A DNA stretch of 64,000 nt from IMG/VR virus record IMGVR_UViG_3300047157_000171, one strand, 5' to 3'. The position numbers and the translations under genes are program-made. Origin of the DNA: a virus. Positions 23,938 through 61,079 of this stretch are shown here, in pieces; the first letter of the stretch is position 1; the number at the start of each line of letters is the position of its first letter. Under the pieces are notes generated by a model. It was not told the DNA's origin. It searched no databases and saw only the letters and a program-made list of their open reading frames with translations.

Positions 23938-24627
23938 ATGATACATCCAGAAATTTACAGTTATTTTGATGATAAGGAGGCTTGGAAAAGAAAGTATATG
24001 AGACCTGAGGCTTTATCAATGGAGTGGGATATGATGTTGGAAGAAGTCGGTCCTGACGTATTCCAATTCCCATTATTTAAAGAAGAGTTATGTGCTAAGT
24101 TAATTGAAGAAGCTGAAGCGACACAATCGTGGACACATAAGAGACATGCGTTTTATCCCACTACGGATATGTTAGTGGAGACCTTTGGGTTTGAAGAGAT
24201 ATATCATGAGATAATGGATGAATATATTATGGGAGCAGCAAGACACATTTACCAATTAAATGGTCAGAATTGGGACCAAGGAAATGTATATTCCGAGAAT
24301 TTTATGATACGTTATTCACCTGAAGAACAGGGACATTTATCACTACATTATGACCAATCGTCAATATCGTGTAACGTGGCGTTAAATGACGACTTTGAGG
24401 GTGGTGGTACGTATTTCTCAAGACATAAGGTATTGGCGAAAGCTAAAGGAACGGGTTATGTTACATTTCATCCTGGTCAGATAACACACAAACACGGAGG
24501 GATGCCGACAAACAAAGGAACTCGATATATTATTGTTTCATTTATGAATGATGATAAAAATAGAGAAGACCACATTAATGATTTAGAAAGATTTGCTAAC
24601 GAAAACGGATTCTATAATGATAAATAA
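23938..24627 (+). CDS. PLOD-type lysyl hydroxylase domain (2OG-Fe(II) dioxygenase)
   Basis: HYD...H...R triad; NFMIRYSPEEQ, FEGGGTYF, FHPGQITHKHGG and TRYIIVSF match the LH domain of PLODs. Confidence 0.85.
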   Translation: MIHPEIYSYFDDKEAWKRKYMRPEALSMEWDMMLEEVGPDVFQFPLFKEELCAKLIEEAEATQSWTHKRHAFYPTTDMLVETFGFEEIYHEIMDEYIMGAARHIYQLNGQNWDQGNVYSENFMIRYSPEEQGHLSLHYDQSSISCNVALNDDFEGGGTYFSRHKVLAKAKGTGYVTFHPGQITHKHGGMPTNKGTRYIIVSFMNDDKNREDHINDLERFANENGFYNDK

Positions 24628-35429: not shown

Positions 35430-36104
35430 ATGGATTATAGAGATATTAACGACTTTGGTCGTTTTGCTAAAGATAAGGGGATTTCAGGAATGAATCTTCA
35501 CTACTTCAACCAAAAAGTAGAAAATTCAATGACACCTTACATTTTAGAGGAGAGAAGTCTTAACGTAACACAGATGGATGTGTTTTCAAGATTAATGATG
35601 GACAGAATCTTATGGGTTTCGGGACCTGTAAATGACCAAATGGCGTCTATTGTACAAGCACAATTACTATTCTTAGATAACATTGATGATAGAGATATTT
35701 CAATGTATATCGATTCACCAGGTGGTTCTGTTAAGGCGGGACTTTCAATGGTTGATGTTATGGACTATGTGAATAGTGATATCGCTACCGTTAATGCGGG
35801 AATGGCAGCATCGATGGGTTCTGTATTGTTAGGTGCAGGAACCAAAGGTAAAAGGTCTTCATTAAGATTCTCACAAACAATGTTACACCAATCATCAGGT
35901 GGTGCGGTCGGTAACATCCAAGACGCTGAGATTTCTATGATTGAATGGAGAAAAGTAAATCAACAGTTATTTGAACTATTAGGTGGTTACTGTGACAAAG
36001 ATGCTGAACAAGTTAAGAAAGATGCGACTCGTGATTTTTGGTTAAGTGCTGATGAGGCCAAAGAGTATGGAATTATTGATGAAGTGATTCGTAAACGAAG
36101 TTAA
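35430..36104 (+). CDS. clpP: ATP-dependent Clp protease proteolytic subunit
   Basis: DVFSRLMMDRI, YIDSPGGSV, AASMGS (Ser), MLHQ (His), RDFWLSADEAKEYGIID. Confidence 0.95.
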   Translation: MDYRDINDFGRFAKDKGISGMNLHYFNQKVENSMTPYILEERSLNVTQMDVFSRLMMDRILWVSGPVNDQMASIVQAQLLFLDNIDDRDISMYIDSPGGSVKAGLSMVDVMDYVNSDIATVNAGMAASMGSVLLGAGTKGKRSSLRFSQTMLHQSSGGAVGNIQDAEISMIEWRKVNQQLFELLGGYCDKDAEQVKKDATRDFWLSADEAKEYGIIDEVIRKRS

Positions 36105-37383: not shown

Positions 37384-38175
37384 ATGGCTAAATACACATC
37401 ACACATCAACCAAGACGAGATATCACATTATCTTAAAGAGTTAAGAAAGATTCCTGTTATAACACCAGAAAGAGAAAAGGAATTGTCTAAAATCATGTTA
37501 AACCCCGATGTAACCCAACGAGAGATTGATAAGGTACATAAAGAATTATTAGAGGGTAACTTAAGATTCGTTATAACAGTAGCTAAAGACTACCAAGGTC
37601 AAGGTATTGATTTATCTGACTTGATATCTGAGGGTAATTTAGGTCTTATGAAGGCGATTAAGTCATTTGATTGGAGTAGAGGTTTAAGATTTATATCATA
37701 CGCAGTATGGTGGGTTAAACAATCAATCTTCCAATGTCTAAATGAAAACTCAAGGACTATTAGATTACCTGTTAATGTTGTGCAAGAAGTACAAAAGGCA
37801 AAAAAACAAGATAAACGTGTGGAGGATATAAACCCACGTCTTAGTAATTTAGCACATGCAATTACCTTCGATGACCATATTAATGAGGAGGGTGATACTA
37901 TGTTCGATTTATTAGAGGATGCTGATGCGGTGATGCCAGATTCAGCTTTGGACGGTAAAGATATAGTTAAAAGACAACTCCTTAATATTATGGATGTCTT
38001 AGACGAACGTGAAAATGCTATCGTTAAAGATTACTTCGGAATCACTGGAACCCCAAGAACGTTAGAGGACATTGGTAATGATTTCGGACTAACAAAAGAA
38101 AGGGTTAGACAAATTAAAGAAAAGGCACTACGTAAGTTACGTAATGAGTCAGACGCAATATTTGACTACTTATAA
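37384..38175 (+). CDS. Sigma-70 family RNA polymerase sigma factor (short RpoD-like, no region 1.1)
   Basis: NLRFVITVAK, DLISEGNLGLMKA, FISYAVWWVKQ, TLEDIG..FGLTKERVRQI. Confidence 0.93.
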   Translation: MAKYTSHINQDEISHYLKELRKIPVITPEREKELSKIMLNPDVTQREIDKVHKELLEGNLRFVITVAKDYQGQGIDLSDLISEGNLGLMKAIKSFDWSRGLRFISYAVWWVKQSIFQCLNENSRTIRLPVNVVQEVQKAKKQDKRVEDINPRLSNLAHAITFDDHINEEGDTMFDLLEDADAVMPDSALDGKDIVKRQLLNIMDVLDERENAIVKDYFGITGTPRTLEDIGNDFGLTKERVRQIKEKALRKLRNESDAIFDYL

Positions 38176-46312: not shown

Positions 46313-47119
46313 ATGAATAATTATTACAAAATTTTAGGATTAAGTAAAGACGCAAGTCAAGAGGACATTAAAAAGTCTTATCGTAAACTTTCTAAAAAAC
46401 ACCATCCTGACATGGGTGGTGATGACGAAATGTTTAAAAAGATTAATGAAGCTTATAGTGTGTTGGGTGATGAGAAAAAAAGAAAAGAACATGATAATCC
46501 AAGACGTAGTTTTGATGATATATTCTCGTCAGGTTTTGGTTCTGATTTTATGGAAAGTATGTTCAATCAAGGTAGGTCTCGCAGATATCGAGGTTCCGAC
46601 ATAAAAATTGACTTAACTATCACGGTAAAAGATTCTATGATGGGGGGTGAAAAGGAAGTGTCTTATTATCGTATGACTAAAGATTTCAGAGAAGAAAGAC
46701 GTAGTATAAAGATTAATATACCACAGGGTGCAGACGATGGTAATCTTTTCAGAGTTTCAGGTGGTGGTAATCAAGGGGAGTCCTCACCGGGAGATTTAAT
46801 TATAATTATTAATATAGGTTCAGATGGTGTGTATTCAAAATCAGGTTTCAACCTTTTTTATAACTTAGAGTTGAACCCTTTAGAGATATTAACAGGTAAA
46901 GAGGCTACGATTGATTTATACCACAGTAAGATTAAAGTAAATATCCCATCGTGTGTTGATATGAATAAACAAATGAGGGTTAAGGGTAAAGGATTTAAAA
47001 CACGAAGAGGTTTTGGTGATTTGTTTATTACATTTAAAGTAAAAACACCAAAAGAATTATCTGAATATGAATGGAGATTAGTTGAACAACTAAAAAAAGG
47101 AGATAATTTTAGAGATTAA
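46313..47119 (+). CDS. DnaJ-class chaperone (J domain plus C-terminal domain, no Zn finger)
   Basis: YYKILGL...KHHPD...FKKINEAYSVL; G/F region; PGDLII; RVKGKG. Confidence 0.9.
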   Translation: MNNYYKILGLSKDASQEDIKKSYRKLSKKHHPDMGGDDEMFKKINEAYSVLGDEKKRKEHDNPRRSFDDIFSSGFGSDFMESMFNQGRSRRYRGSDIKIDLTITVKDSMMGGEKEVSYYRMTKDFREERRSIKINIPQGADDGNLFRVSGGGNQGESSPGDLIIIINIGSDGVYSKSGFNLFYNLELNPLEILTGKEATIDLYHSKIKVNIPSCVDMNKQMRVKGKGFKTRRGFGDLFITFKVKTPKELSEYEWRLVEQLKKGDNFRD

Positions 47120-47248
47120 CTCAACCATACCATAAAGAAACAAACTTCCTACGATTATCATTCCTATAATAACAGGTCTTTCAGTTTTTCTCAACTCTCT
47201 TTCGAGTTGTTCTCTCTGTTCTTTCTTTTTACATTTTGTACATGCCAT
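47090..47248 (-). CDS. Small CxxC/TM peptide (not in the ORF track)
   Basis: MACTKCKKKEQREQLERELRKTERPVIIGMIIVGSLFLYGMVELISKIISFF. Confidence 0.45.
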   Translation of the reverse strand: MACTKCKKKEQREQLERELRKTERPVIIGMIIVGSLFLYGMVELISKIISFF

Positions 47249-47323
47249 TACTTCACTATTTTCTTTAAATATAGTGGTTTTATGGTCTTTGTCAAACGAT
47301 TTTTAAAATTTAACTAAATAAGA

Positions 47324-47355
47324 TTTGCCTTTTACCTTTTTTTATACTACATTTG
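47324..47355 (+). promoter_or_regulatory. Bacteroidota housekeeping-sigma promoter upstream of the methylase
   Basis: TTTG-N20-TACATTTG. Confidence 0.7.
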
Positions 47356-47386
47356 TCTACAATAAAGTTTTAAAATAGAAAAAAGT

Positions 47387-48265
47387 ATGTTTAGTTATAT
47401 AGGTGGAAAAAGTAAGATTGGTAAATGGATTAAAGAATTCATACCTACAGATATGGAGACTTATGTGGAACCCTTTAGTGGTGCCTTTTGGGTTTACTAT
47501 AATTTAGATTTGGCGTTATACCCAAAATTAAAGACAGTAGTTTATAATGATTTTAATAAGGTAAATGCGAACTTATTTGCTTGTGTAAAGAAATATGAAG
47601 AGTTTTACGAGTTTATTAAAGACATTCCTGCTCAAGAGAAGGATAGGTTTGAAAGATACCAAAAAGGTGCGTTTGAGGACTTTGATTTTGACCCAGACAC
47701 ACCTAACTTTCAAAAAGGTTTGGAGTATATCTATGTTGTGACTCAAGTGTTCAGTGGGATTAGACCTGAAACATCTAACTTCATTGATTTAAAGGGTAAA
47801 TACAATTCTAAATTCAACTCATTTAGAAACAAACTAAATAACCCTAAGTTCTATAAACATTTCCAAATGATAACGCACGTTAAGAATGAGGATTTTGAAG
47901 ATATCATTAATGAGTTTGATTCACCAACCACATATTTTTATTTAGACCCACCATATTGGAAAACTGAGGATTATTATTCTAACCAAGACTTTGATGTCAC
48001 GGACCACAAAAGACTTTCAGAAGTTTTAGGTAAGATTGAGGGTAAATATAGTCTATCTTACTACGATTTTGAGTTATTGAAAGAATACTACCCAAAAGAC
48101 ACCCATAGATGGACGAGTAAAGATTACGCAAAGGCGGCAGGTGCGGTATCAGGTAAAAAACAGACAAAGGCAAGTGAGTTATTGATTATGAATTATAATG
48201 ATACAACGTGGCAAGATGTAATTTTAGAAAAAGAAAATATTACAGACGATACATTTGGAAAATAA
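47387..48265 (+). CDS. Dam-like (D12 class) N6-adenine DNA methyltransferase
   Basis: YIGGKSK, YVEPFSG, YNDFN, YLDPPY, ELLIMNY. Confidence 0.9.
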   Translation: MFSYIGGKSKIGKWIKEFIPTDMETYVEPFSGAFWVYYNLDLALYPKLKTVVYNDFNKVNANLFACVKKYEEFYEFIKDIPAQEKDRFERYQKGAFEDFDFDPDTPNFQKGLEYIYVVTQVFSGIRPETSNFIDLKGKYNSKFNSFRNKLNNPKFYKHFQMITHVKNEDFEDIINEFDSPTTYFYLDPPYWKTEDYYSNQDFDVTDHKRLSEVLGKIEGKYSLSYYDFELLKEYYPKDTHRWTSKDYAKAAGAVSGKKQTKASELLIMNYNDTTWQDVILEKENITDDTFGK

Positions 48266-50301: not shown

Positions 50302-51708
50302 ATGAAAAACAGGTTAACTTTAGTAACGGTTGCGACTCATAAGACGCATGAGTTAGATAGGTTTATTGAGTCCGCTAATTATCACGGATATGACTATGTT
50401 ATATTAGGATTAGGGATGGAATGGACCGGTGGTGTTGCCGATAATGGTCGGTTAGTATTCCCCGGTGGAGGAATGAAAGTGAATCTTCTAAAAGATTATT
50501 TATCCACATATGTGGGGTCGAATAGTGATGTTATACTTTTTACAGATTCTTACGATGTTGTATTCAACGAAAAACCCGATGAGTTATTAAGTAGATGGAA
50601 CGGTAATGTATTATTTACTGCGGAAAAAACTTGTTGGCCTGACAGGGATTTGGAAGAAGAATATCCAAACTCACCTTATGGTTATAAATATTTAAATAGT
50701 GGTGGTTTTATTGCTACAGTTGGTGACCTAATTAATCTAACGGAGACTAAGTGTATGGACCACGACGATGACCAACTATATTACACACTAAAGTTTTTAA
50801 ATGGTGATAAGATTAATTTGGATTATAATTTAGATATATTTCAAACTCTTAATCAGTCTATTGACGATGTTGAAATACATAATGGTAGAGTATATAATAA
50901 AGTGACTAAAACGTATCCTATTGTTATTCACGCTAATGGAGGTGTTGGTCCAAGAACTTATTTAAACAAATTATATAACGATATGAGACAACCAGACCCT
51001 AAGTTAAAACAGTTAAATGGTGATGAAAGAGTGTGTTTACAAATGTTATTTGATAAGAAACATACGAATCCATCAATTATGGTTGAAAGTCTTTCTTACT
51101 TAACCTATGATAAAAGATTGATTGATTTATCGTTTTATAATAATGACAAAGAAAATCAATGGGCGATTGAGAACTACATTAAAAATAATGGAGATAAATA
51201 CAACTCAATCACACAGGTTTATGATGAAAGTAAAGGGGTTTATGAGTTAAGAGAAATGTCGTTTAAGGAGTCTACAGGATATGATGGTGATTATGTATTA
51301 CATAACGATTCATCATTTATTATAAAAAACAAGGATACAATTCAGTTATTAATGTCTGAGGGTAAGGATATAATCTCACCGATGATTAATACTGAACAAA
51401 CGTTTAACTCTAATTTTTGGGGTGGTGTTTCAGACGATGGGTATTATTTAGAAAGTTATGACTATCACGATATTAGAACGTACAATAAAAAAGGAACTTT
51501 TGTTGTTCCATTTATTAGTGGTGTGATAATGTTCAGTAAAGAAATCTTAAAGACTGATTTATTTTCAACTATGTTTAGTGATTTAGATAAAGAGATACTA
51601 AATTACTACAATGAGGACCATATGGTTGTGTTAGCTAATACTATCAGAGATAAGAATCTGTTTATGTATATAACCAATAAAAGATATTACGGAAAATTCT
51701 TTAATTAA
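50302..51708 (+). CDS. PLOD-type glycosyltransferase plus accessory domain (procollagen GT-like)
   Basis: LVTVAT, LGLGMEWTGG, GGGMKV, FTDSYDV, AEKTCWPD, YLNSGGFI, DDDQLYYT, IHANG, SNFWG. Confidence 0.88.
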   Translation: MKNRLTLVTVATHKTHELDRFIESANYHGYDYVILGLGMEWTGGVADNGRLVFPGGGMKVNLLKDYLSTYVGSNSDVILFTDSYDVVFNEKPDELLSRWNGNVLFTAEKTCWPDRDLEEEYPNSPYGYKYLNSGGFIATVGDLINLTETKCMDHDDDQLYYTLKFLNGDKINLDYNLDIFQTLNQSIDDVEIHNGRVYNKVTKTYPIVIHANGGVGPRTYLNKLYNDMRQPDPKLKQLNGDERVCLQMLFDKKHTNPSIMVESLSYLTYDKRLIDLSFYNNDKENQWAIENYIKNNGDKYNSITQVYDESKGVYELREMSFKESTGYDGDYVLHNDSSFIIKNKDTIQLLMSEGKDIISPMINTEQTFNSNFWGGVSDDGYYLESYDYHDIRTYNKKGTFVVPFISGVIMFSKEILKTDLFSTMFSDLDKEILNYYNEDHMVVLANTIRDKNLFMYITNKRYYGKFFN

Positions 51709-56075: not shown

Positions 56076-56888
56076 ATGGAAAAAAAATACGAGATTAAAG
56101 TTAGAGACAAAGGTTTTAGCGTGTTACGTACTAATGACGTGATAGGGTTTAAAACGTATACGGTTGTTAATGAGAATGACAGTAACTACTATACCGTATC
56201 AGTTGCTAATAACGCAACCTTAAAAGAATCTAATAATGATGAGGTTTTTTATGTCATTAAGGAGAAAGGTAAAAGAGTTATTAGAGAAAATATAAACACA
56301 ATCTTTCCAACTACAATTGTAAATTACTTTCTATCGAATTTAAATGAAAATGAAGAGTATGTGGGGGAAGGTAATTCAGAAGAGGTTTTAGATTACCTTT
56401 ATGATACTTTCAATAGGTTAAGTTATCGAGTAAGACATGTAATATATTACGATAATATAGAAGACTCTTTAGATTATGAATTTTTATTAATAATTGGAGG
56501 TGATTTGGATACTATATATCTTTCAGTTAAGGAAAACGGTGATATTTTTGTTGTTGACAATGACGAAGTTCATTTGTTAGGTGATACAGGTTCTCCTGAG
56601 TATTTTGAAAAGTCTTTATCTACTTACTTAAGTGGTATGGAACATTTTACTGCGATGGTTAATGAGGATATGGATGATGAGGTCATCATTGAGTCATTTA
56701 ATCAAACACACGGTATTGTAATAGAAAATAGAATTGCTCAAATATACAATAAGAATACTTCAAAATCTTGTGGTTATATTGATAGACGTAATGGTGTTTA
56801 TAAATTAACAGAAGATGTTAAATTATATGGGGTTGATAGGTTAAAATCTATTGTTGAAAACTACGAAGTAAAACAATTACTTAAATAG
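56076..56888 (+). CDS. Hypothetical protein
   Basis: 270 aa; TATTTATA upstream. Confidence 0.6.
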   Translation: MEKKYEIKVRDKGFSVLRTNDVIGFKTYTVVNENDSNYYTVSVANNATLKESNNDEVFYVIKEKGKRVIRENINTIFPTTIVNYFLSNLNENEEYVGEGNSEEVLDYLYDTFNRLSYRVRHVIYYDNIEDSLDYEFLLIIGGDLDTIYLSVKENGDIFVVDNDEVHLLGDTGSPEYFEKSLSTYLSGMEHFTAMVNEDMDDEVIIESFNQTHGIVIENRIAQIYNKNTSKSCGYIDRRNGVYKLTEDVKLYGVDRLKSIVENYEVKQLLK

Positions 56889-56890
56889 TA

Positions 56891-57442
56891 TTATTGTCTT
56901 ATCAGTAGGTCTATAAAGTGTTCTTTAAGGTCCATTCTTTCTTCTTCGGGGTAACTACACCACTGCCAAGTAATACTTGCTTTAATCGTATCTATTTCGG
57001 TCTGAACTTTCTTACAGTTTTTCTCTAAGGTGTCTAAATCTTTCTTATCAAATTCTTTCTCGATATCAATATCTAATTCGTCTGATAACATAACCAACTC
57101 CATTAGATTTAAATCTTCATATGCTTTGGCTGCTTTTGAAAATATCTTATTCATCTTTTCGTCCTTAATAACGTCAGGATGTGTTTTACGTGAGATATTA
57201 CGGTACAGTTCTTTTGCGATTTTAGAATTGTTCTTAGGTTTAACCTCTTCGTTAAGTTCATCGATTAGTTTTTGACCTTCAGCGGATGCCTTATCAATAC
57301 CATCATGATTAGACTCGTCCATTAGGGTATCTTTAAAGTCCTCCATAAATATTGCAGTATATTCTTCCTGTTGTGAAGTCACTTCGTCTAATTCTAATTG
57401 GAGGTATTTGTATTTAAACACCCATTTTTTTGTTGTATTCAT
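56891..57442 (-). CDS. J-domain-like protein
   Basis: KELYRNISRKTHPD...IFSKAAKAYE. Confidence 0.7.
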   Translation of the reverse strand: MNTTKKWVFKYKYLQLELDEVTSQQEEYTAIFMEDFKDTLMDESNHDGIDKASAEGQKLIDELNEEVKPKNNSKIAKELYRNISRKTHPDVIKDEKMNKIFSKAAKAYEDLNLMELVMLSDELDIDIEKEFDKKDLDTLEKNCKKVQTEIDTIKASITWQWCSYPEEERMDLKEHFIDLLIRQ

Positions 57443-57443
57443 A

Positions 57444-58421
57444 TTAAAATATAATAAGTTCTTTAGTTTTGTCTAACTGTTCCCATTGAAATTTATCAGG
57501 AGTATCAAAACCGTTAATATAGTAATCTTTATAAATTGGTGTAAAAAAATCTAACTTATCTTTCATTTGTTTAATTGATAGAGGAAAGACATCCATAACA
57601 CAACTATAAATATTTTTCATATCGTATTTCTCAGTACCAAATGAATTAATATTAAAACTTAATGGTGTGATTGAACTTTGATTAAAGTTAACACTTATTA
57701 AACATTCGTCCATCAATGAACTATTAACAATGTTCTTAGACATATACCTCAAATAAAGAGGTAGTATTCTATTTGGTGATAATGGGTCAGAACCAATGAA
57801 TTGATTATTGGTGGTTGGTAATTCGTGATAACTATGTAGTGTGTTATTATTAGTATAAAACTCACTATGGGTTGTGTATGTGTTTAAGATACTTACAGAA
57901 GGTTTCTCTAATTTTGGGTCGTCGAGTCTAACGATATTTAAAACATCTTTCTTAGACACACTCCTGTCGTTAGTCATAACAGTAATTGATACGACATTAC
58001 ATTCTTTCGTATCGTATGTTAATTGACAAATGTGCGAGTGACTTTTACTTAACCCGTCTACGATTTTTTGTGAGATGTGTTTACCAATAGGGTATGAGTT
58101 GACTACATTTTTTGTTGAGTAACCATAATAGTTACCATAATGTAGTGTGTCAGAATAAATTGGCGATTTTTGTTGAAAAAAATTAATCTCGGAGAACGTA
58201 TTAAATAACTCAAAATTATCTTGGAAAAGGTATGATTTCAAATCAATTAAGTTTGTAGTAGGAAGATAGATATTACAGTATTTACCAAATATTGAAGTAT
58301 TTATATTGTAAGGAAACAGATTGTTACACTCAATGAAGTAGTCCACAATAGATTCACTAATAATATTAGGAATAGATTGTTTAGTTTTAACCGAATAAGA
58401 CTTGTAATTTCTGTATCTCAC
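57444..58421 (-). CDS. Catalytically degenerate S-adenosylmethionine synthetase (MetK) homolog
   Basis: Collinear with MetK: QQKSP, GYST, GSDP...RYMSKNIV...DEC, FGTEK, PIYK, FQWEQLDK; GHPDK, GRK and GKD are absent. Confidence 0.75.
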   Translation of the reverse strand: MRYRNYKSYSVKTKQSIPNIISESIVDYFIECNNLFPYNINTSIFGKYCNIYLPTTNLIDLKSYLFQDNFELFNTFSEINFFQQKSPIYSDTLHYGNYYGYSTKNVVNSYPIGKHISQKIVDGLSKSHSHICQLTYDTKECNVVSITVMTNDRSVSKKDVLNIVRLDDPKLEKPSVSILNTYTTHSEFYTNNNTLHSYHELPTTNNQFIGSDPLSPNRILPLYLRYMSKNIVNSSLMDECLISVNFNQSSITPLSFNINSFGTEKYDMKNIYSCVMDVFPLSIKQMKDKLDFFTPIYKDYYINGFDTPDKFQWEQLDKTKELIIF

Positions 58422-58508
58422 TTTTTTTTTAATAAATGTATATAAATTATACTACATTATAAAGGAGGTGATATTTATAAAAGTATTAAAACAGTAAAAA
58501 GATAATAA

Positions 58509-61079
58509 ATGGCTAGGTATAGAAGGCTCACCACAACTACTACTTCAATCATTCAGGGCGTCCCGTCCACTATCGACACAATACAAGAATTAGCATCATT
58601 CGTAAATGAAAATGCTATTATTAATGTTGATGTAAACGGGTTAGACTTAGTAATTGACAGAAATAACGGAACACAAGACGTTATTGATTTAACTCCTATT
58701 GCTACAGGAGAGGTAAGTGCGGTATCTATAATAAGTGCTGGTTTAAATAACGGTACTTTAACACTAACCAAGTCAGACAACACAGAGTTTAGTGTTGATT
58801 TAAAACAACTACAATTCATCGTTACCCCTTCATTGGTTGGTAACGATTTAATATTTACAGATTCTTTAGGTTCTACAATTAGTATTGACCTAACTTCATT
58901 CGACCAAACAGTTTCAGTTAATTCGCTTTCTACACGTATTTCTTCAGAAGAAATCAGTAGAATCGCGGGGGATAACTCATTATCTGGTTCGATAAATTCA
59001 CTTTCAACGAGAATAGATAATAGTGGTTCTACGTATGACGATACTGCCGTGTATGGTGAGATATCTACGGTAAAAACGTCATTAGATAGTAGAATAAATG
59101 GTATTTCTATACCATCAGAATTTGATTCAAGTTCTTTAACCACTAGAGTTTCATCGGTAGAGAGTACGGTTAACGGAATCTCAATTCCTTCGGAGTTTGA
59201 TTCGAGTTCGTTAACAACAAGAATATCTTCAGTAGAGAGTACGGTTGATGGGATTTCAATTCCTTCGGAGTTTGATTCTTCTTCACTAACCAGTAGAATT
59301 TCTATTGAGGAGAGTGTTCGTACTGATGGTGATACATCGATTTCACAGTCGATTAATCAAAGGTTTAGTAATATAAGTGGTTCTATTTACGATGACACGT
59401 CATTAACAACAAGGGTATCATCAATAGAGAGTAGCGTTGACGGAATATCAGTACCTACAGATGTGTCTGATTTAACTGACAATGGAAGTCTTTTAAATGG
59501 TACGACATATGATGATACATCGATAGAGAGTAGGGTTAGTCTAACCGAAAGTGTTAATAGTTCTTTAGATTCAAGAATATCAACTGAAGAGTCTAATAGA
59601 ATATTATCTGATGTATCACAAAACACATCAATAGACCAAAGATTCACAAACCTTAGTAGTTCTACATATAATGATACGTCTTTAGTTACACGAGTATCTT
59701 CAGTGGAGAGTACAATCAATGGTATATCAATACCGTCTGAATTCGACCCTTCATCTTTAGAGGATAGAGTATCTGTGGAGAAAGTTGGTAGAATTGCTGG
59801 TGATAATTCATTAACAATTCGTGTTAGTCAGTTAGAAGTTGCTGACCCATCTATAGACAGTAGAATATCAACTGAAGAGTCATCTCGTATATCGGGTGAT
59901 ACTTCGATAGACCAAAGATTTAGTAATCTTAGTGGTTCTATATATAATGATACATCATTAGTAAGTAGGGTATCAACATTAGAGGATACGGTTGGTGGCA
60001 TATCTATACCATCAGAATTTGATTCGACATCACTTACAACGAGGTTATCGTCAGTAGAGAGTACGGTTAATGGTATTTCAATACCATCAGAATTTGATTC
60101 AAGTTCAATTGAGACACGTATCACAACAAACGATACTCATATAGCTTCTATTAATAATAGAGTATCAACCAAAGAAATTTTAATTAGTGATGTATCAACA
60201 GAGTTGGCGTCATTATCTATACCATCAGAATTTAATTCTTCGTCTTTAACAACGAGAATATCTGCGATGGAGATTGTTCATGATTTAGACGAACAATCAA
60301 TCAACACAAAAATATCGAGTAATAGTTCAACAATAGCTTCATTAGATAATAAGTTATCGTTAACTGAAACTAATTTTAGTTCGGATATATCATCATTAAC
60401 TAGTTTAATTGGTGGGTTACAAACTGTTGTTAACAGTCAACAATCTACAATAGTCTCATTAGGGGATAAAATTGAAGAATGTTGTGATGGTCCTGAACCG
60501 ACTACAACAACTACGACAACAGATAGTTCAACGACTACTACAACAACTGAGTCACCAACGACTACTACAACAACTGAGTCACCAACAACTACAACAACAA
60601 CGACTCAGAGTGGTACGACTACAACGACAACGACATTAAATAGTAGTAACTCTTATCTATTATATGCTGACGCTGGACCTGGTGCAGGACAAGTATTATA
60701 CAATTCGAGTAACCAACAATTTTATCCGTTCTTAGTACAAAATAGTCCAACAAATTTTAATGATTTTGTTACGGACAGACTTAACAATTCAAATAATATT
60801 ACTATATTTAGTCATGACGTATGTGCAGATAAAAACACCGTCACTTTTAGTTTGAATTTCCCAGGAAGTACAAACGGAGTACAGGCGTTCTACTTACATC
60901 CGTCGTCTCAAGGTACAATAGTTAATATACTTGATACAAATAATAATACTACCTATTCTGTGACACCAAGTAGTGGTCAATCGGTAACGATAGGTGGTGC
61001 TAACTATACCTTATATAGATGGTTACAACCACAACCAAATGGTTCGACTTTCTCAATAAAGGTAAATAATTGTTTATAA
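58509..61079 (+). CDS. Fibre-like virion protein with 25-aa repeats and a Thr-rich hinge
   Basis: TIDTIQELA motif; repeated GISIPSEFDSSSLTTRVSSVESTV; coiled coil; Thr tract; beta-rich C-terminus. Confidence 0.7.
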   Translation: MARYRRLTTTTTSIIQGVPSTIDTIQELASFVNENAIINVDVNGLDLVIDRNNGTQDVIDLTPIATGEVSAVSIISAGLNNGTLTLTKSDNTEFSVDLKQLQFIVTPSLVGNDLIFTDSLGSTISIDLTSFDQTVSVNSLSTRISSEEISRIAGDNSLSGSINSLSTRIDNSGSTYDDTAVYGEISTVKTSLDSRINGISIPSEFDSSSLTTRVSSVESTVNGISIPSEFDSSSLTTRISSVESTVDGISIPSEFDSSSLTSRISIEESVRTDGDTSISQSINQRFSNISGSIYDDTSLTTRVSSIESSVDGISVPTDVSDLTDNGSLLNGTTYDDTSIESRVSLTESVNSSLDSRISTEESNRILSDVSQNTSIDQRFTNLSSSTYNDTSLVTRVSSVESTINGISIPSEFDPSSLEDRVSVEKVGRIAGDNSLTIRVSQLEVADPSIDSRISTEESSRISGDTSIDQRFSNLSGSIYNDTSLVSRVSTLEDTVGGISIPSEFDSTSLTTRLSSVESTVNGISIPSEFDSSSIETRITTNDTHIASINNRVSTKEILISDVSTELASLSIPSEFNSSSLTTRISAMEIVHDLDEQSINTKISSNSSTIASLDNKLSLTETNFSSDISSLTSLIGGLQTVVNSQQSTIVSLGDKIEECCDGPEPTTTTTTTDSSTTTTTTESPTTTTTTESPTTTTTTTQSGTTTTTTTLNSSNSYLLYADAGPGAGQVLYNSSNQQFYPFLVQNSPTNFNDFVTDRLNNSNNITIFSHDVCADKNTVTFSLNFPGSTNGVQAFYLHPSSQGTIVNILDTNNNTTYSVTPSSGQSVTIGGANYTLYRWLQPQPNGSTFSIKVNNCL
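59100..60260 (+). repeat. Dispersed 75-nt/25-aa repeat (SIPSEFDSSSLTTR...)
   Basis: Three tandem units at about 59100-59300, with further units near 59720, 60000, 60075 and 60215. Confidence 0.9.
60500..60635 (+). repeat. Thr-rich tract (TTTTTTESP)n
   Basis: EPTTTTTTTDSSTTTTTTESPTTTTTTESPTTTTTTTQSGTTTTTTT. Confidence 0.9.

What the first reader, a model, noticed from the sequence alone, without database searches (positions are those of the whole stretch)
57444..58421. Phage-encoded dead SAM synthetase (pseudo-MetK): candidate inhibitor of host SAM supply
Seen: collinear similarity to E. coli MetK across all three domains. Examples: SYSV..IISESIVD versus SESV..QISDAVLD; QQKSP/GKQSP; GNYYGYST/GLMFGYAT; FIGSDP...RYMSKNIVNSSLMDEC/FSGKDP...RYVAKNIVAAGLADRC; SFGTEK/TFGTEK; FTPIYK/LHPIYK; FQWEQLDK/FPWEKTDK. 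The catalytic motifs GHPDK, GAGDQG, GRK and GGGAFSGKD are eroded, while the C-terminal domain is best kept. Known: MetK active sites form at subunit interfaces; type I R-M, BREX and viperins need SAM; T3 SAM lyase also binds and inhibits MetK. Inferred: a dominant-negative subunit that poisons host MetK as an anti-defence mechanism, or a ligand-binding/scaffold exaptation. Caveat: the phage's own Dam-like methylase needs SAM, so timing would matter.
Basis: partly seen in the sequence, partly recalled or inferred. Interest (0 to 1): 0.9.

Follow-up and report, generated by a model that had tools for sequence, protein, structure and literature searches.

The report
Dead SAM-synthetase mimic in marine phage
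A large marine phage keeps, under strong selection, a full-length copy of the SAM-making enzyme MetK that has lost essentially every catalytic residue; it is always co-transcribed with a chaperone-recruiting J-domain gene, so it has a new non-enzymatic job that is still unknown.

Summary
Evidence: Pfam C-domain 1.4e-18; hhalign to E. coli MetK, probability 98.7; tblastn with a compact phage MetK over aa 20-349, E 3e-17; an AF2 model at pLDDT 86.9 that matches MetK structures at TM 0.80-0.85.

Fourteen of fifteen catalytic or ligand positions are substituted or deleted. It scores 75 bits against the 309-bit TIGR01034 cut-off, so it is not a SAM synthetase.

It is not decaying. Fourteen homologues (41-98% identity, 318-327 aa) have no stops, and dN/dS is 0.03-0.08. 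In the tree a very long stem is followed by short inner branches.

New here: in every lineage sampled the gene is followed, one nucleotide later, by a J-domain gene with an invariant HPD motif. A second dead-MetK lineage sits in the same syntenic slot of related phages, but there it is followed by ClpP.

Arguing against it are the replaced interface and active-site residues and the phage's own Dam methylase.

My best reading is a non-catalytic MetK-shaped binding module that works with host protein-quality-control machinery. Its target is unknown, possibly host MetK.

The scan has noted other dead MetK relatives in other phages. I found no published description.

The parts
57444..58421 (-). 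Dead MetK-fold gene (pseudo-MetK), 325 aa, GTG start. All three MetK domains are present; the catalytic residues are lost.
56891..57442 (-). Co-transcribed J-domain protein, 183 aa, starting 1 nt after the pseudo-MetK stop codon. The HPD motif (H88-P89-D90) is invariant in 13 homologues. N- and C-terminal extensions of unknown function are also conserved.
   Evidence: Pfam DnaJ 1.8e-5, 25.2 bits, just under the 27.8 cut-off. Alignment A3. The pairing is seen in all sampled lineages.
58456..58478 (-). Conserved upstream element (ATAAATATC-N5-CTTTATWAT) in the 87-bp divergent intergenic region. It is a candidate promoter or operator of the pair, or of the divergent fibre gene.
   Evidence: Conserved in 9 loci at 48-99% protein identity. 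Unique in the window, although one match is also what shuffled sequence gives, so its weight rests on the cross-lineage conservation.
58433..58440 (-). TAnnTTTA box 19-27 nt before the start codon in all lineages, followed by an A-rich leader without a Shine-Dalgarno sequence. It resembles the Bacteroidota -7 promoter box TAnnTTTG.
   Evidence: The promoter reading is inference.

Best explanation
WHAT IT IS (about 0.95). A pseudoenzyme descended from a MetK gene. It keeps the three-domain MetK scaffold but cannot bind ATP, Mg2+/K+ or methionine in the canonical way, so it does not make SAM. It is a functional, selected gene of a lineage of large marine phages. These are probably phages of Flavobacteriia, resembling the published 'moraphages'.

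HOW IT MOST LIKELY WORKS (inferred, about 0.4; this is the confidence given below). It acts as a non-catalytic, MetK-shaped binding module. It is expressed from its own divergent promoter as a two-gene unit with a J-domain co-chaperone, and it works together with the host protein-quality-control machinery. Here that link is DnaK, recruited through the HPD J-domain. In the sister lineage the equivalent dead MetK is paired with ClpP. The remodelled but strongly conserved former active-site face (for example the YGNYYGY segment and the G-S-D-P...R...LYLR segment) would be the new binding surface.

TARGET. The target is not shown. The most attractive candidate is host MetK or SAM supply (sub-claim about 0.25): a mixed oligomer would lack half of each composite active site, and DnaK or ClpP could help remodel or remove the host enzyme.

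SHOWN: homology, fold, loss of catalytic residues, purifying selection, and gene pairing.
INFERRED: every step about binding partners and effects.
For: Identity and fold.

Catalytic loss: 14 of 15 positions. TIGR01034 scores 75.2 bits against a 309.4 cut-off, whereas the compact phage MetK P0017 scores 386.

Selection:
- 14 homologues of 318-327 aa with 68 invariant columns.
- dN/dS 0.029-0.048 at dS 0.13-0.40, and 0.08 at dS about 1.1.
- Monophyletic family with a 4.58 substitutions-per-site stem and short inner branches, the pattern of a burst of change followed by constraint.
- Conservation within the family is highest in segments aligned to the old active-site loops, and E42 to N and E55 to P are invariant replacements.

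Link to proteostasis:
- The J-domain gene follows at 1-nt spacing in the window and in L003, L005, L010, L012, L014, L015-L019 and L020, while the next gene beyond it varies.
- The positional orthologue P0029/P0177/P0178 is followed by ClpP at 3-15 nt in L008, L022 and L023, with the same Grx/PcfJ/DUF932 flank.
- The phage also carries a full DnaJ and a ClpP.

Established knowledge:
- MetK active sites are built from both subunits of the tight dimer.
- J-domains with HPD stimulate the DnaK ATPase.
- A phage J-protein that acts on DnaK is known (Rki of RB43, PMC3486835).
- Phages do attack MetK and SAM (T3 SAMase, PMC8406200).
Against: - No binding was demonstrated.
- Gene adjacency in phages with conserved synteny is weak evidence of joint function, and the two-lineage proteostasis coincidence was noticed post hoc.
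- The J-domain Pfam score is slightly under the gathering threshold.
- For host MetK as the target: the interface and active-site residues are replaced, and five segments are deleted relative to MetK.
- MetK dimers are stable and exchange subunits slowly (general knowledge).
- The phage encodes a SAM-dependent Dam methylase.
Confidence: 0.4

Rival explanations
1. Stand-alone dominant-negative subunit. The dead protein heterodimerises with newly made host MetK, inactivates both composite active sites and lowers SAM. This would blunt type I R-M, BREX or other SAM-dependent defences, with no need for the J-protein.
For: The whole MetK fold is retained. The active sites are composite (established knowledge). 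T3 SAMase inhibiting MetK is a precedent (PMC8406200; bioRxiv 10.1101/2023.02.27.530186). The protein evolves about twice as fast as its neighbours, as host-interacting proteins often do.
Against: The isologous interface residues are mostly replaced or deleted. The N and M domains are undetectable by MetK HMMs. The stem branch is very long. The phage has its own Dam methylase. This model does not explain the strict pairing with a J-protein or ClpP.
Confidence: 0.15
2. Small-molecule sponge or sensor. The remodelled cleft binds SAM, a SAM-derived signal (such as SAM-AMP from the type III CRISPR systems of Bacteroidota), methionine or a nucleotide, and sequesters or senses it.
For: The adenine-stacking Phe is kept (F188, 92% in the family). 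The cleft-lining segments are the most conserved parts of the protein. SAM-AMP signalling exists (PMC12255297).
Against: All canonical methionine, phosphate and metal ligands are lost, and the gating loop is deleted. No ligand test was possible. The pairing with J or ClpP is unexplained.
Confidence: 0.1
3. Prozyme-like helper or decoy. It binds host MetK (or a host or competitor factor that attacks MetK) and thereby stabilises or protects SAM synthesis, which the phage needs for its Dam methylase.
For: The phage needs SAM for its D12 methylase. Dead paralogues that activate their live partner exist (trypanosome AdoMetDC prozyme, PMC6221367).
Against: A heterodimer would lack half of each active site, so activation is mechanistically unlikely. 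The same interface erosion applies as above.
Confidence: 0.07
4. A new enzyme. The scaffold was re-tooled for a different reaction, using the conserved Tyr/Asn/Ser-rich cleft.
For: There is strong conservation of new residues at old active-site positions (N41, P54, the YGNYYGY segment, the FYTNNN segment).
Against: There is no metal- or phosphate-binding constellation and no acid/base pair recognisable. No similarity to any other enzyme family was found.
Confidence: 0.07
5. A decaying relic of a phage MetK auxiliary gene, with no function.
For: Loss of all catalytic motifs.
Against: dN/dS is 0.03-0.08. Reading frames are intact in all 14 or more homologues. There are 68 invariant columns. The gene is retained at the same locus in two deeply diverged lineages.
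Confidence: 0.01

Closest known systems
Canonical methionine adenosyltransferase MetK/MAT (E. coli MetK, e.g. PDB 1FUG, 7LL3; TIGR01034; Pfam PF00438+PF02772+PF02773)
   Same: Same three-domain fold (TM 0.80-0.85). It is collinear over the whole length. The C-terminal domain is clearly homologous (about 33% identity), including the G-x-D-P...R...R-Y-x-x-K-N-I-V helix, F-G-T-E and P-W-E segments.
   Different: It is about 60 aa shorter. 14 of 15 catalytic or ligand residues are lost. The GAGDQG/gating loop and the D238-K245 loop are deleted. It fails the equivalog threshold (75 against 309 bits), and only one of the three Pfam domains is detected.
Compact phage-encoded MetKs (phrog_1569; e.g. 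genes annotated S-adenosylmethionine synthetase in Staphylococcus phage UPMK_1 and Faecalibacterium phage FP_Brigit)
   Same: Phage-borne and of similar small size (347-371 aa). They are the best non-family hits of the exhaustive profile search (P0017, 2.9e-21) and a plausible ancestor.
   Different: They keep all the motifs and pass TIGR01034 (386 bits). The window protein matches only the last 108 positions of phrog_1569 (2e-9).
T3 SAM lyase (SAMase), which also inhibits E. coli MetK by heteropolymer formation (PMC8406200)
   Same: A phage protein aimed at host SAM supply or MetK. It is the functional precedent for the hypothesised target.
   Different: Unrelated fold. It has a demonstrated enzymatic activity and demonstrated binding; nothing of the kind is shown here.
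Dead-paralogue regulators such as trypanosome AdoMetDC prozyme (PMC6221367)
   Same: A catalytically dead paralogue, kept by selection, of a SAM-pathway enzyme whose active form is oligomeric.
   Different: Prozyme activates its partner, and both are encoded by the same genome. Here the dead copy is viral and its partner is unknown.
Rki, the J-domain protein of T4-like phage RB43 (PMC3486835)
   Same: The neighbouring gene is likewise a small phage protein with an HPD J-domain plus unrelated extensions, and is expected to engage host DnaK.
   Different: There is no sequence relationship outside the J-domain. Rki is not linked to a MetK-like gene.

Membership tests
MetK/MAT (EC 2.5.1.6) | Three-domain alpha/beta MetK fold | tested here: met
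   AF2 pLDDT 86.9. Foldseek against the PDB gives MetKs at E 1e-22, TM 0.80-0.85. Atlas TM 0.86. Caveat: the MSA used for the confident model included true MetKs. The family-only model was poor, but gave the same secondary structure for residues 1-180.
MetK/MAT (EC 2.5.1.6) | All three Pfam domains (N, M, C) above gathering score, or the TIGR01034 equivalog score | tested here: not met
   Only PF02773 (C) passes. TIGR01034 scores 75.2 bits against a cut-off of 309.4.
MetK/MAT (EC 2.5.1.6) | Catalytic and ligand residues (GHPDK; GAGDQG; D238/R244/K245 loop; GGGAFSGKD...K269, D271; E42, E55, Q98, K165) | tested here: not met
   Eleven are substituted and three are deleted. Only F230 is kept.
MetK/MAT (EC 2.5.1.6) | Synthesis of SAM from ATP and methionine | not testable with these tools
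   Needs an enzyme assay. The sequence predicts no activity.
MetK/MAT (EC 2.5.1.6) | Tight isologous dimer (dimer of dimers) | not tested
phrog_1569 (compact phage MetK) | Full-length match to the 346-position profile | tested here: not met
   Only positions 239-346 match, E 2e-9. True members match positions 3-346 at about 1e-111.
J-domain proteins (neighbour gene 56891-57442) | J-domain with the HPD tripeptide between helices II and III | tested here: met
   HPD is invariant in 13 sequences. Pfam DnaJ scores 1.8e-5, 25.2 bits, just below the 27.8 cut-off. Homologues carry a precomputed PF00226 hit.
J-domain proteins (neighbour gene 56891-57442) | Stimulation of DnaK ATPase | not testable with these tools
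   Needs biochemistry or a genetic complementation assay.
Anti-defence proteins that deplete SAM (T3 SAMase-like function) | Lowers cellular SAM or inhibits MetK, and rescues phage on R-M or BREX hosts | not testable with these tools
PADLOC gave no meaningful hit.

The most novel reading that the evidence does not exclude
The dead MetK is the targeting subunit of a phage 'enzyme-demolition' module. It co-assembles with host MetK through the shared fold and hands the mixed complex to host DnaK (through its J-domain partner) or, in the sister lineage, to ClpP. Host SAM synthesis is thereby unfolded or degraded. SAM-dependent immunity (type I R-M, BREX, SAM-AMP signalling of Bacteroidota type III CRISPR) would collapse after the phage has methylated its own DNA.
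Probability: 0.08. Interest if true: 0.9.

Novelty: new variant of a known kind. Interest (0 to 1): 0.62.

Why it matters
MetK is the sole source of SAM, and SAM feeds restriction-modification, BREX, some CRISPR signalling and radical-SAM antivirals. The only characterised phage attack on MetK is T3 SAMase.

This protein is a selected, catalytically dead MetK copy. It has been kept at one locus through deep phage divergence and is wired to chaperone or protease genes. That would be a new kind of phage tool.

If it acts on host MetK, it would be the first viral pseudoenzyme mimic of a central metabolic enzyme in bacteria. If it does not, it is a clean case of a MetK scaffold recruited to a new function.

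It is also a practical warning. Databases label some members 'S-adenosylmethionine synthetase', which would wrongly count them as auxiliary metabolic genes.

Tried and rejected
- Complex prediction of pseudo-MetK (A1) with the J-protein (A3) returned 'no answer' (score 0.00, controls not run). It counts neither for nor against binding.
- AF2 with the 14-member family alignment alone gave pLDDT 56.7 and was not used for fold search.
- BFVD fold search gave no useful viral relative.
- PADLOC gave only a noise-level Csn2 hit with no matching stretch.
- Scans of viral contigs and genome contigs for family members found none, so there is no prophage copy and no direct host link.
- The window's own assembly is not held, and the nearest record G001 lacks the gene. 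Loci from metagenomes could not be used as handles. I therefore could not check whether complete genomes also carry a genuine MetK. Within the 64-kb window there is none.
- hhalign against single sequences reached only the M+C domains (E. coli) or only the C domain (P0029). N-domain homology therefore rests on the MAFFT alignment, the tblastn with P0017 and the fold.
- The tree did not resolve which MetK clade the family came from, and long branches make the placement of P0029 unreliable. Only the quick tree finished.
- The conserved C-terminal L-I-I-F was considered as a degron. I rejected that as unsupported, because it aligns with hydrophobic positions of the normal MetK C-terminal helix.
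- Literature searches found no paper describing a phage dead MetK. The moraphage paper does not mention MetK.

Full report
1. OBSERVATION

The ORF at 57444-58421 on the minus strand encodes 325 aa and starts with GTG; homologues start with ATG at the same residue.

Sequence searches detect only the MetK C-terminal domain directly:
- Pfam PF02773: 1.4e-18.
- E. coli MetK chains: 1.5e-12 over aa 207-320.
- TIGR01034: 75 bits.

Profile and alignment methods extend the homology to the rest of the protein:
- hhalign of the family profile against E. coli MetK aligns 95-320 with 120-377, probability 98.7.
- tblastn with a compact phage MetK (P0017) aligns its residues 20-349 to nearly the whole ORF at E 3e-17.

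The structure agrees. With an alignment of 61 sequences, AF2 gives pLDDT 86.9 and pTM 0.86. The model matches only MetK structures at the top of the PDB search (E 1e-22, TM 0.80-0.85), and an Atlas MetK cluster at TM 0.86 over residues 1-325.

Caveat: that alignment contained true MetKs. The family-only model was poor (pLDDT 56.7), although its secondary structure for residues 1-180 was the same.

2. CATALYTICALLY DEAD

I mapped 15 catalytic or ligand positions of E. coli MetK onto the protein.
- Eleven are substituted: H14, D16, K17, E42, E55, Q98, D118, K165, K265, K269, D271.
- Three lie in a deletion: D238, R244, K245.
- The GAGDQG/gating-loop segment is deleted.
- Only the adenine-stacking Phe is retained.

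The protein scores 75.2 bits against the TIGR01034 cut-off of 309.4, whereas the compact phage MetK P0017 scores 386. It is therefore not a member of the MetK enzyme family in the functional sense.

3. NOT A RELIC

- Word-based and exhaustive profile searches find a small, sharply delimited family: 13 clusters at 41-98% identity, all 318-327 aa. Only two 50%-identity representatives are found, and then there is a gap to true MetKs at 1e-21.
- There are 68 invariant columns spread over all three domains.
- dN/dS is 0.029-0.048 against near relatives (dS 0.13-0.40) and about 0.08 at dS about 1.1. This is comparable to the adjacent J-protein, thioredoxin and a 177-aa gene, although at the amino-acid level the pseudo-MetK diverges about twice as fast.
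- In a quick ML tree the family is monophyletic (support 100) on a stem of 4.58 substitutions per site, with short internal branches. This is the pattern of a burst of change followed by constraint.
- Several of the most conserved segments are the ones aligned to the old active-site loops. This indicates a remodelled, still important face rather than erosion.

4. CONTEXT

Almost all genes in the window are on the plus strand. The pseudo-MetK and the next gene (56891-57442) form a two-gene minus-strand unit.

Immediate surroundings:
- The stop and start codons of the two genes are one nucleotide apart.
- Upstream is an 87-bp divergent intergenic region. It holds an element conserved in all lineages and a TAnnTTTA box 19-27 nt before the start, followed by an A-rich, Shine-Dalgarno-less leader.

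The second gene:
- It encodes a 183-aa protein with a J-domain (Pfam 1.8e-5).
- HPD is invariant in 13 homologues, and the flanking regions are conserved.

Conservation of the pair:
- It is present in every locus with enough DNA: L003, L005, L010, L012, L014, L015-L020.
- The gene beyond the J gene varies: 270 aa, 273 aa, a 613-aa gene with a PPK2 domain, 406 aa or 414 aa.

The sister lineage:
- A second dead-MetK lineage (P0029/P0177/P0178, 338-343 aa, also lacking the motifs) occurs in related phages. Their ClpP is 65-69% identical to the window's.
- It sits in the same slot: on the opposite strand, between the Grx/PcfJ/DUF932 block and large structural genes.
- There the co-oriented downstream gene is ClpP, 3-15 nt away.

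So two deeply diverged positional orthologues are each paired with a protein-quality-control gene.

Other genes in the window:
- a full DnaJ (46313-47119);
- a D12 Dam-type methylase (47387-48265);
- ClpP (35430-36104);
- a sigma-70 factor;
- thioredoxin and glutaredoxin;
- several glycosyltransferases.

Lineage and host:
- This gene set, the Gln synthetase in L014 and the aquatic sources (including Tara Oceans) resemble the 'moraphages'. Those are large aquatic phages with predicted Flavobacteriia hosts, and the paper describing them does not mention MetK (PMC12619734).
- Host assignment here is inference. No family member was found in bacterial genomes.

5. MECHANISM

Shown: a selected, non-catalytic MetK scaffold, co-organised with a J-domain gene.

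Inferred: it acts by binding, together with host DnaK (or ClpP in the sister lineage).

Whether the bound partner is host MetK is open.
- In favour: MetK active sites are composite, so a mixed dimer would be dead. Phages are known to attack MetK (T3 SAMase; PMC8406200).
- Against: the isologous interface and active-site residues are the ones replaced or deleted; the N and M domains are beyond HMM detection; MetK dimers are stable; and the phage needs SAM for its own methylase.

The one complex-prediction job (pseudo-MetK with the J-protein) gave no verdict.

My estimates are:
- proteostasis-linked binding module: about 0.4, with host MetK as the target about 0.25 overall;
- stand-alone dominant-negative subunit: 0.15;
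- ligand sponge: 0.1;
- prozyme-like helper or decoy: 0.07;
- new enzyme: 0.07;
- relic: 0.01.

6. COMPARISON AND NOVELTY

The closest relatives are canonical MetK and the compact phage MetKs of phrog_1569. PHROGs labels that family 'unknown function', but its members are full MetKs. The window protein fails the defining catalytic and profile criteria of both.

Functionally, the nearest precedents are T3 SAMase (for the target), trypanosome prozyme (dead paralogue of a SAM-pathway enzyme) and RB43 Rki (phage J-protein).

Literature searches found no description of a phage dead MetK.

Earlier notes of this scan report other dead MetK relatives in other phages, for example 231-aa two-domain forms in lake phages. 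I did not test these. They suggest a wider phenomenon, as do the Atlas clusters of short MetK-like proteins commonest in Uroviricota and the other degenerate representatives P0067, P0087 and P0106.

I rate this a new variant of a known kind: a MetK-derived pseudoenzyme family with a conserved proteostasis partner. Interest is moderately high because the function is unknown but directly testable.

Noticed in passing
L008:3297-4982; L022:6001-7716; L023:6001-7689: A second dead MetK-like lineage (P0029/P0177/P0178, 338-343 aa) occurs in related phages. It sits at the same syntenic slot but is followed by ClpP (65-69% identical to the window's ClpP) instead of the J-protein. In L022 a ribosomal protein S21 gene follows ClpP.
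   Followed up: partly
window 46313-48265: A full DnaJ homologue (J-domain plus DnaJ_C, 268 aa) lies directly upstream of a D12-class Dam-type N6-adenine methyltransferase (292 aa). The phage therefore has two J-domain proteins and a SAM-consuming enzyme.
   Followed up: partly
window 35430-36104 and 37384-38175: A strong ClpP homologue (Pfam 4.9e-58) and a phage sigma-70-type factor (regions 1.2, 2 and 4).
   Followed up: no
window 56076-56888; L005:7526-9367; L012:9522-10742; L014:1975-3219: The slot just beyond the J gene is a variable cargo site. It holds a 270-aa ORFan here, a 613-aa gene with a PPK2 (polyphosphate kinase 2) domain in L005/L007, and 406-414-aa genes in L012/L014.
   Followed up: no
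L009:6001-7071: P0067 is a 356-aa MetK homologue on a contig of a bacterial genome assembly (GCA_964371715.1). It keeps HPDK but lacks GAGDQG, the GRK loop and the GKD/K/D phosphate ligands, so it may be an independent bacterial pseudo-MetK. P0087 and P0106 are further degenerate representatives.
   Followed up: partly
L014:4462-5481: A glutamine synthetase gene in a related phage, near the thioredoxin/glutaredoxin block. This is a trait reported for 'moraphages' (PMC12619734).
   Followed up: no
window 58456-58478: The 23-nt element conserved across all lineages in the divergent intergenic region. Its variable 5-nt core happens to read as a perfect Shine-Dalgarno sequence on the plus strand in this phage only, too far (about 30 nt) from the fibre gene start to act as one.
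   Followed up: partly
window 58509-61079: The divergently transcribed 856-aa protein is made of many copies of an approximately 20-30-aa Ser/Thr/Ile-rich repeat and a poly-Thr tract. It is probably a fibre.
   Followed up: no
window 50302-51708 and 23938-24627: A PLOD-type glycosyltransferase domain protein (Pfam GT_PLOD 3.6e-64) and a separate 2OG-Fe(II) oxygenase. Earlier first-reader notes propose a split collagen-type lysyl hydroxylase/glycosyltransferase pathway.
   Followed up: no
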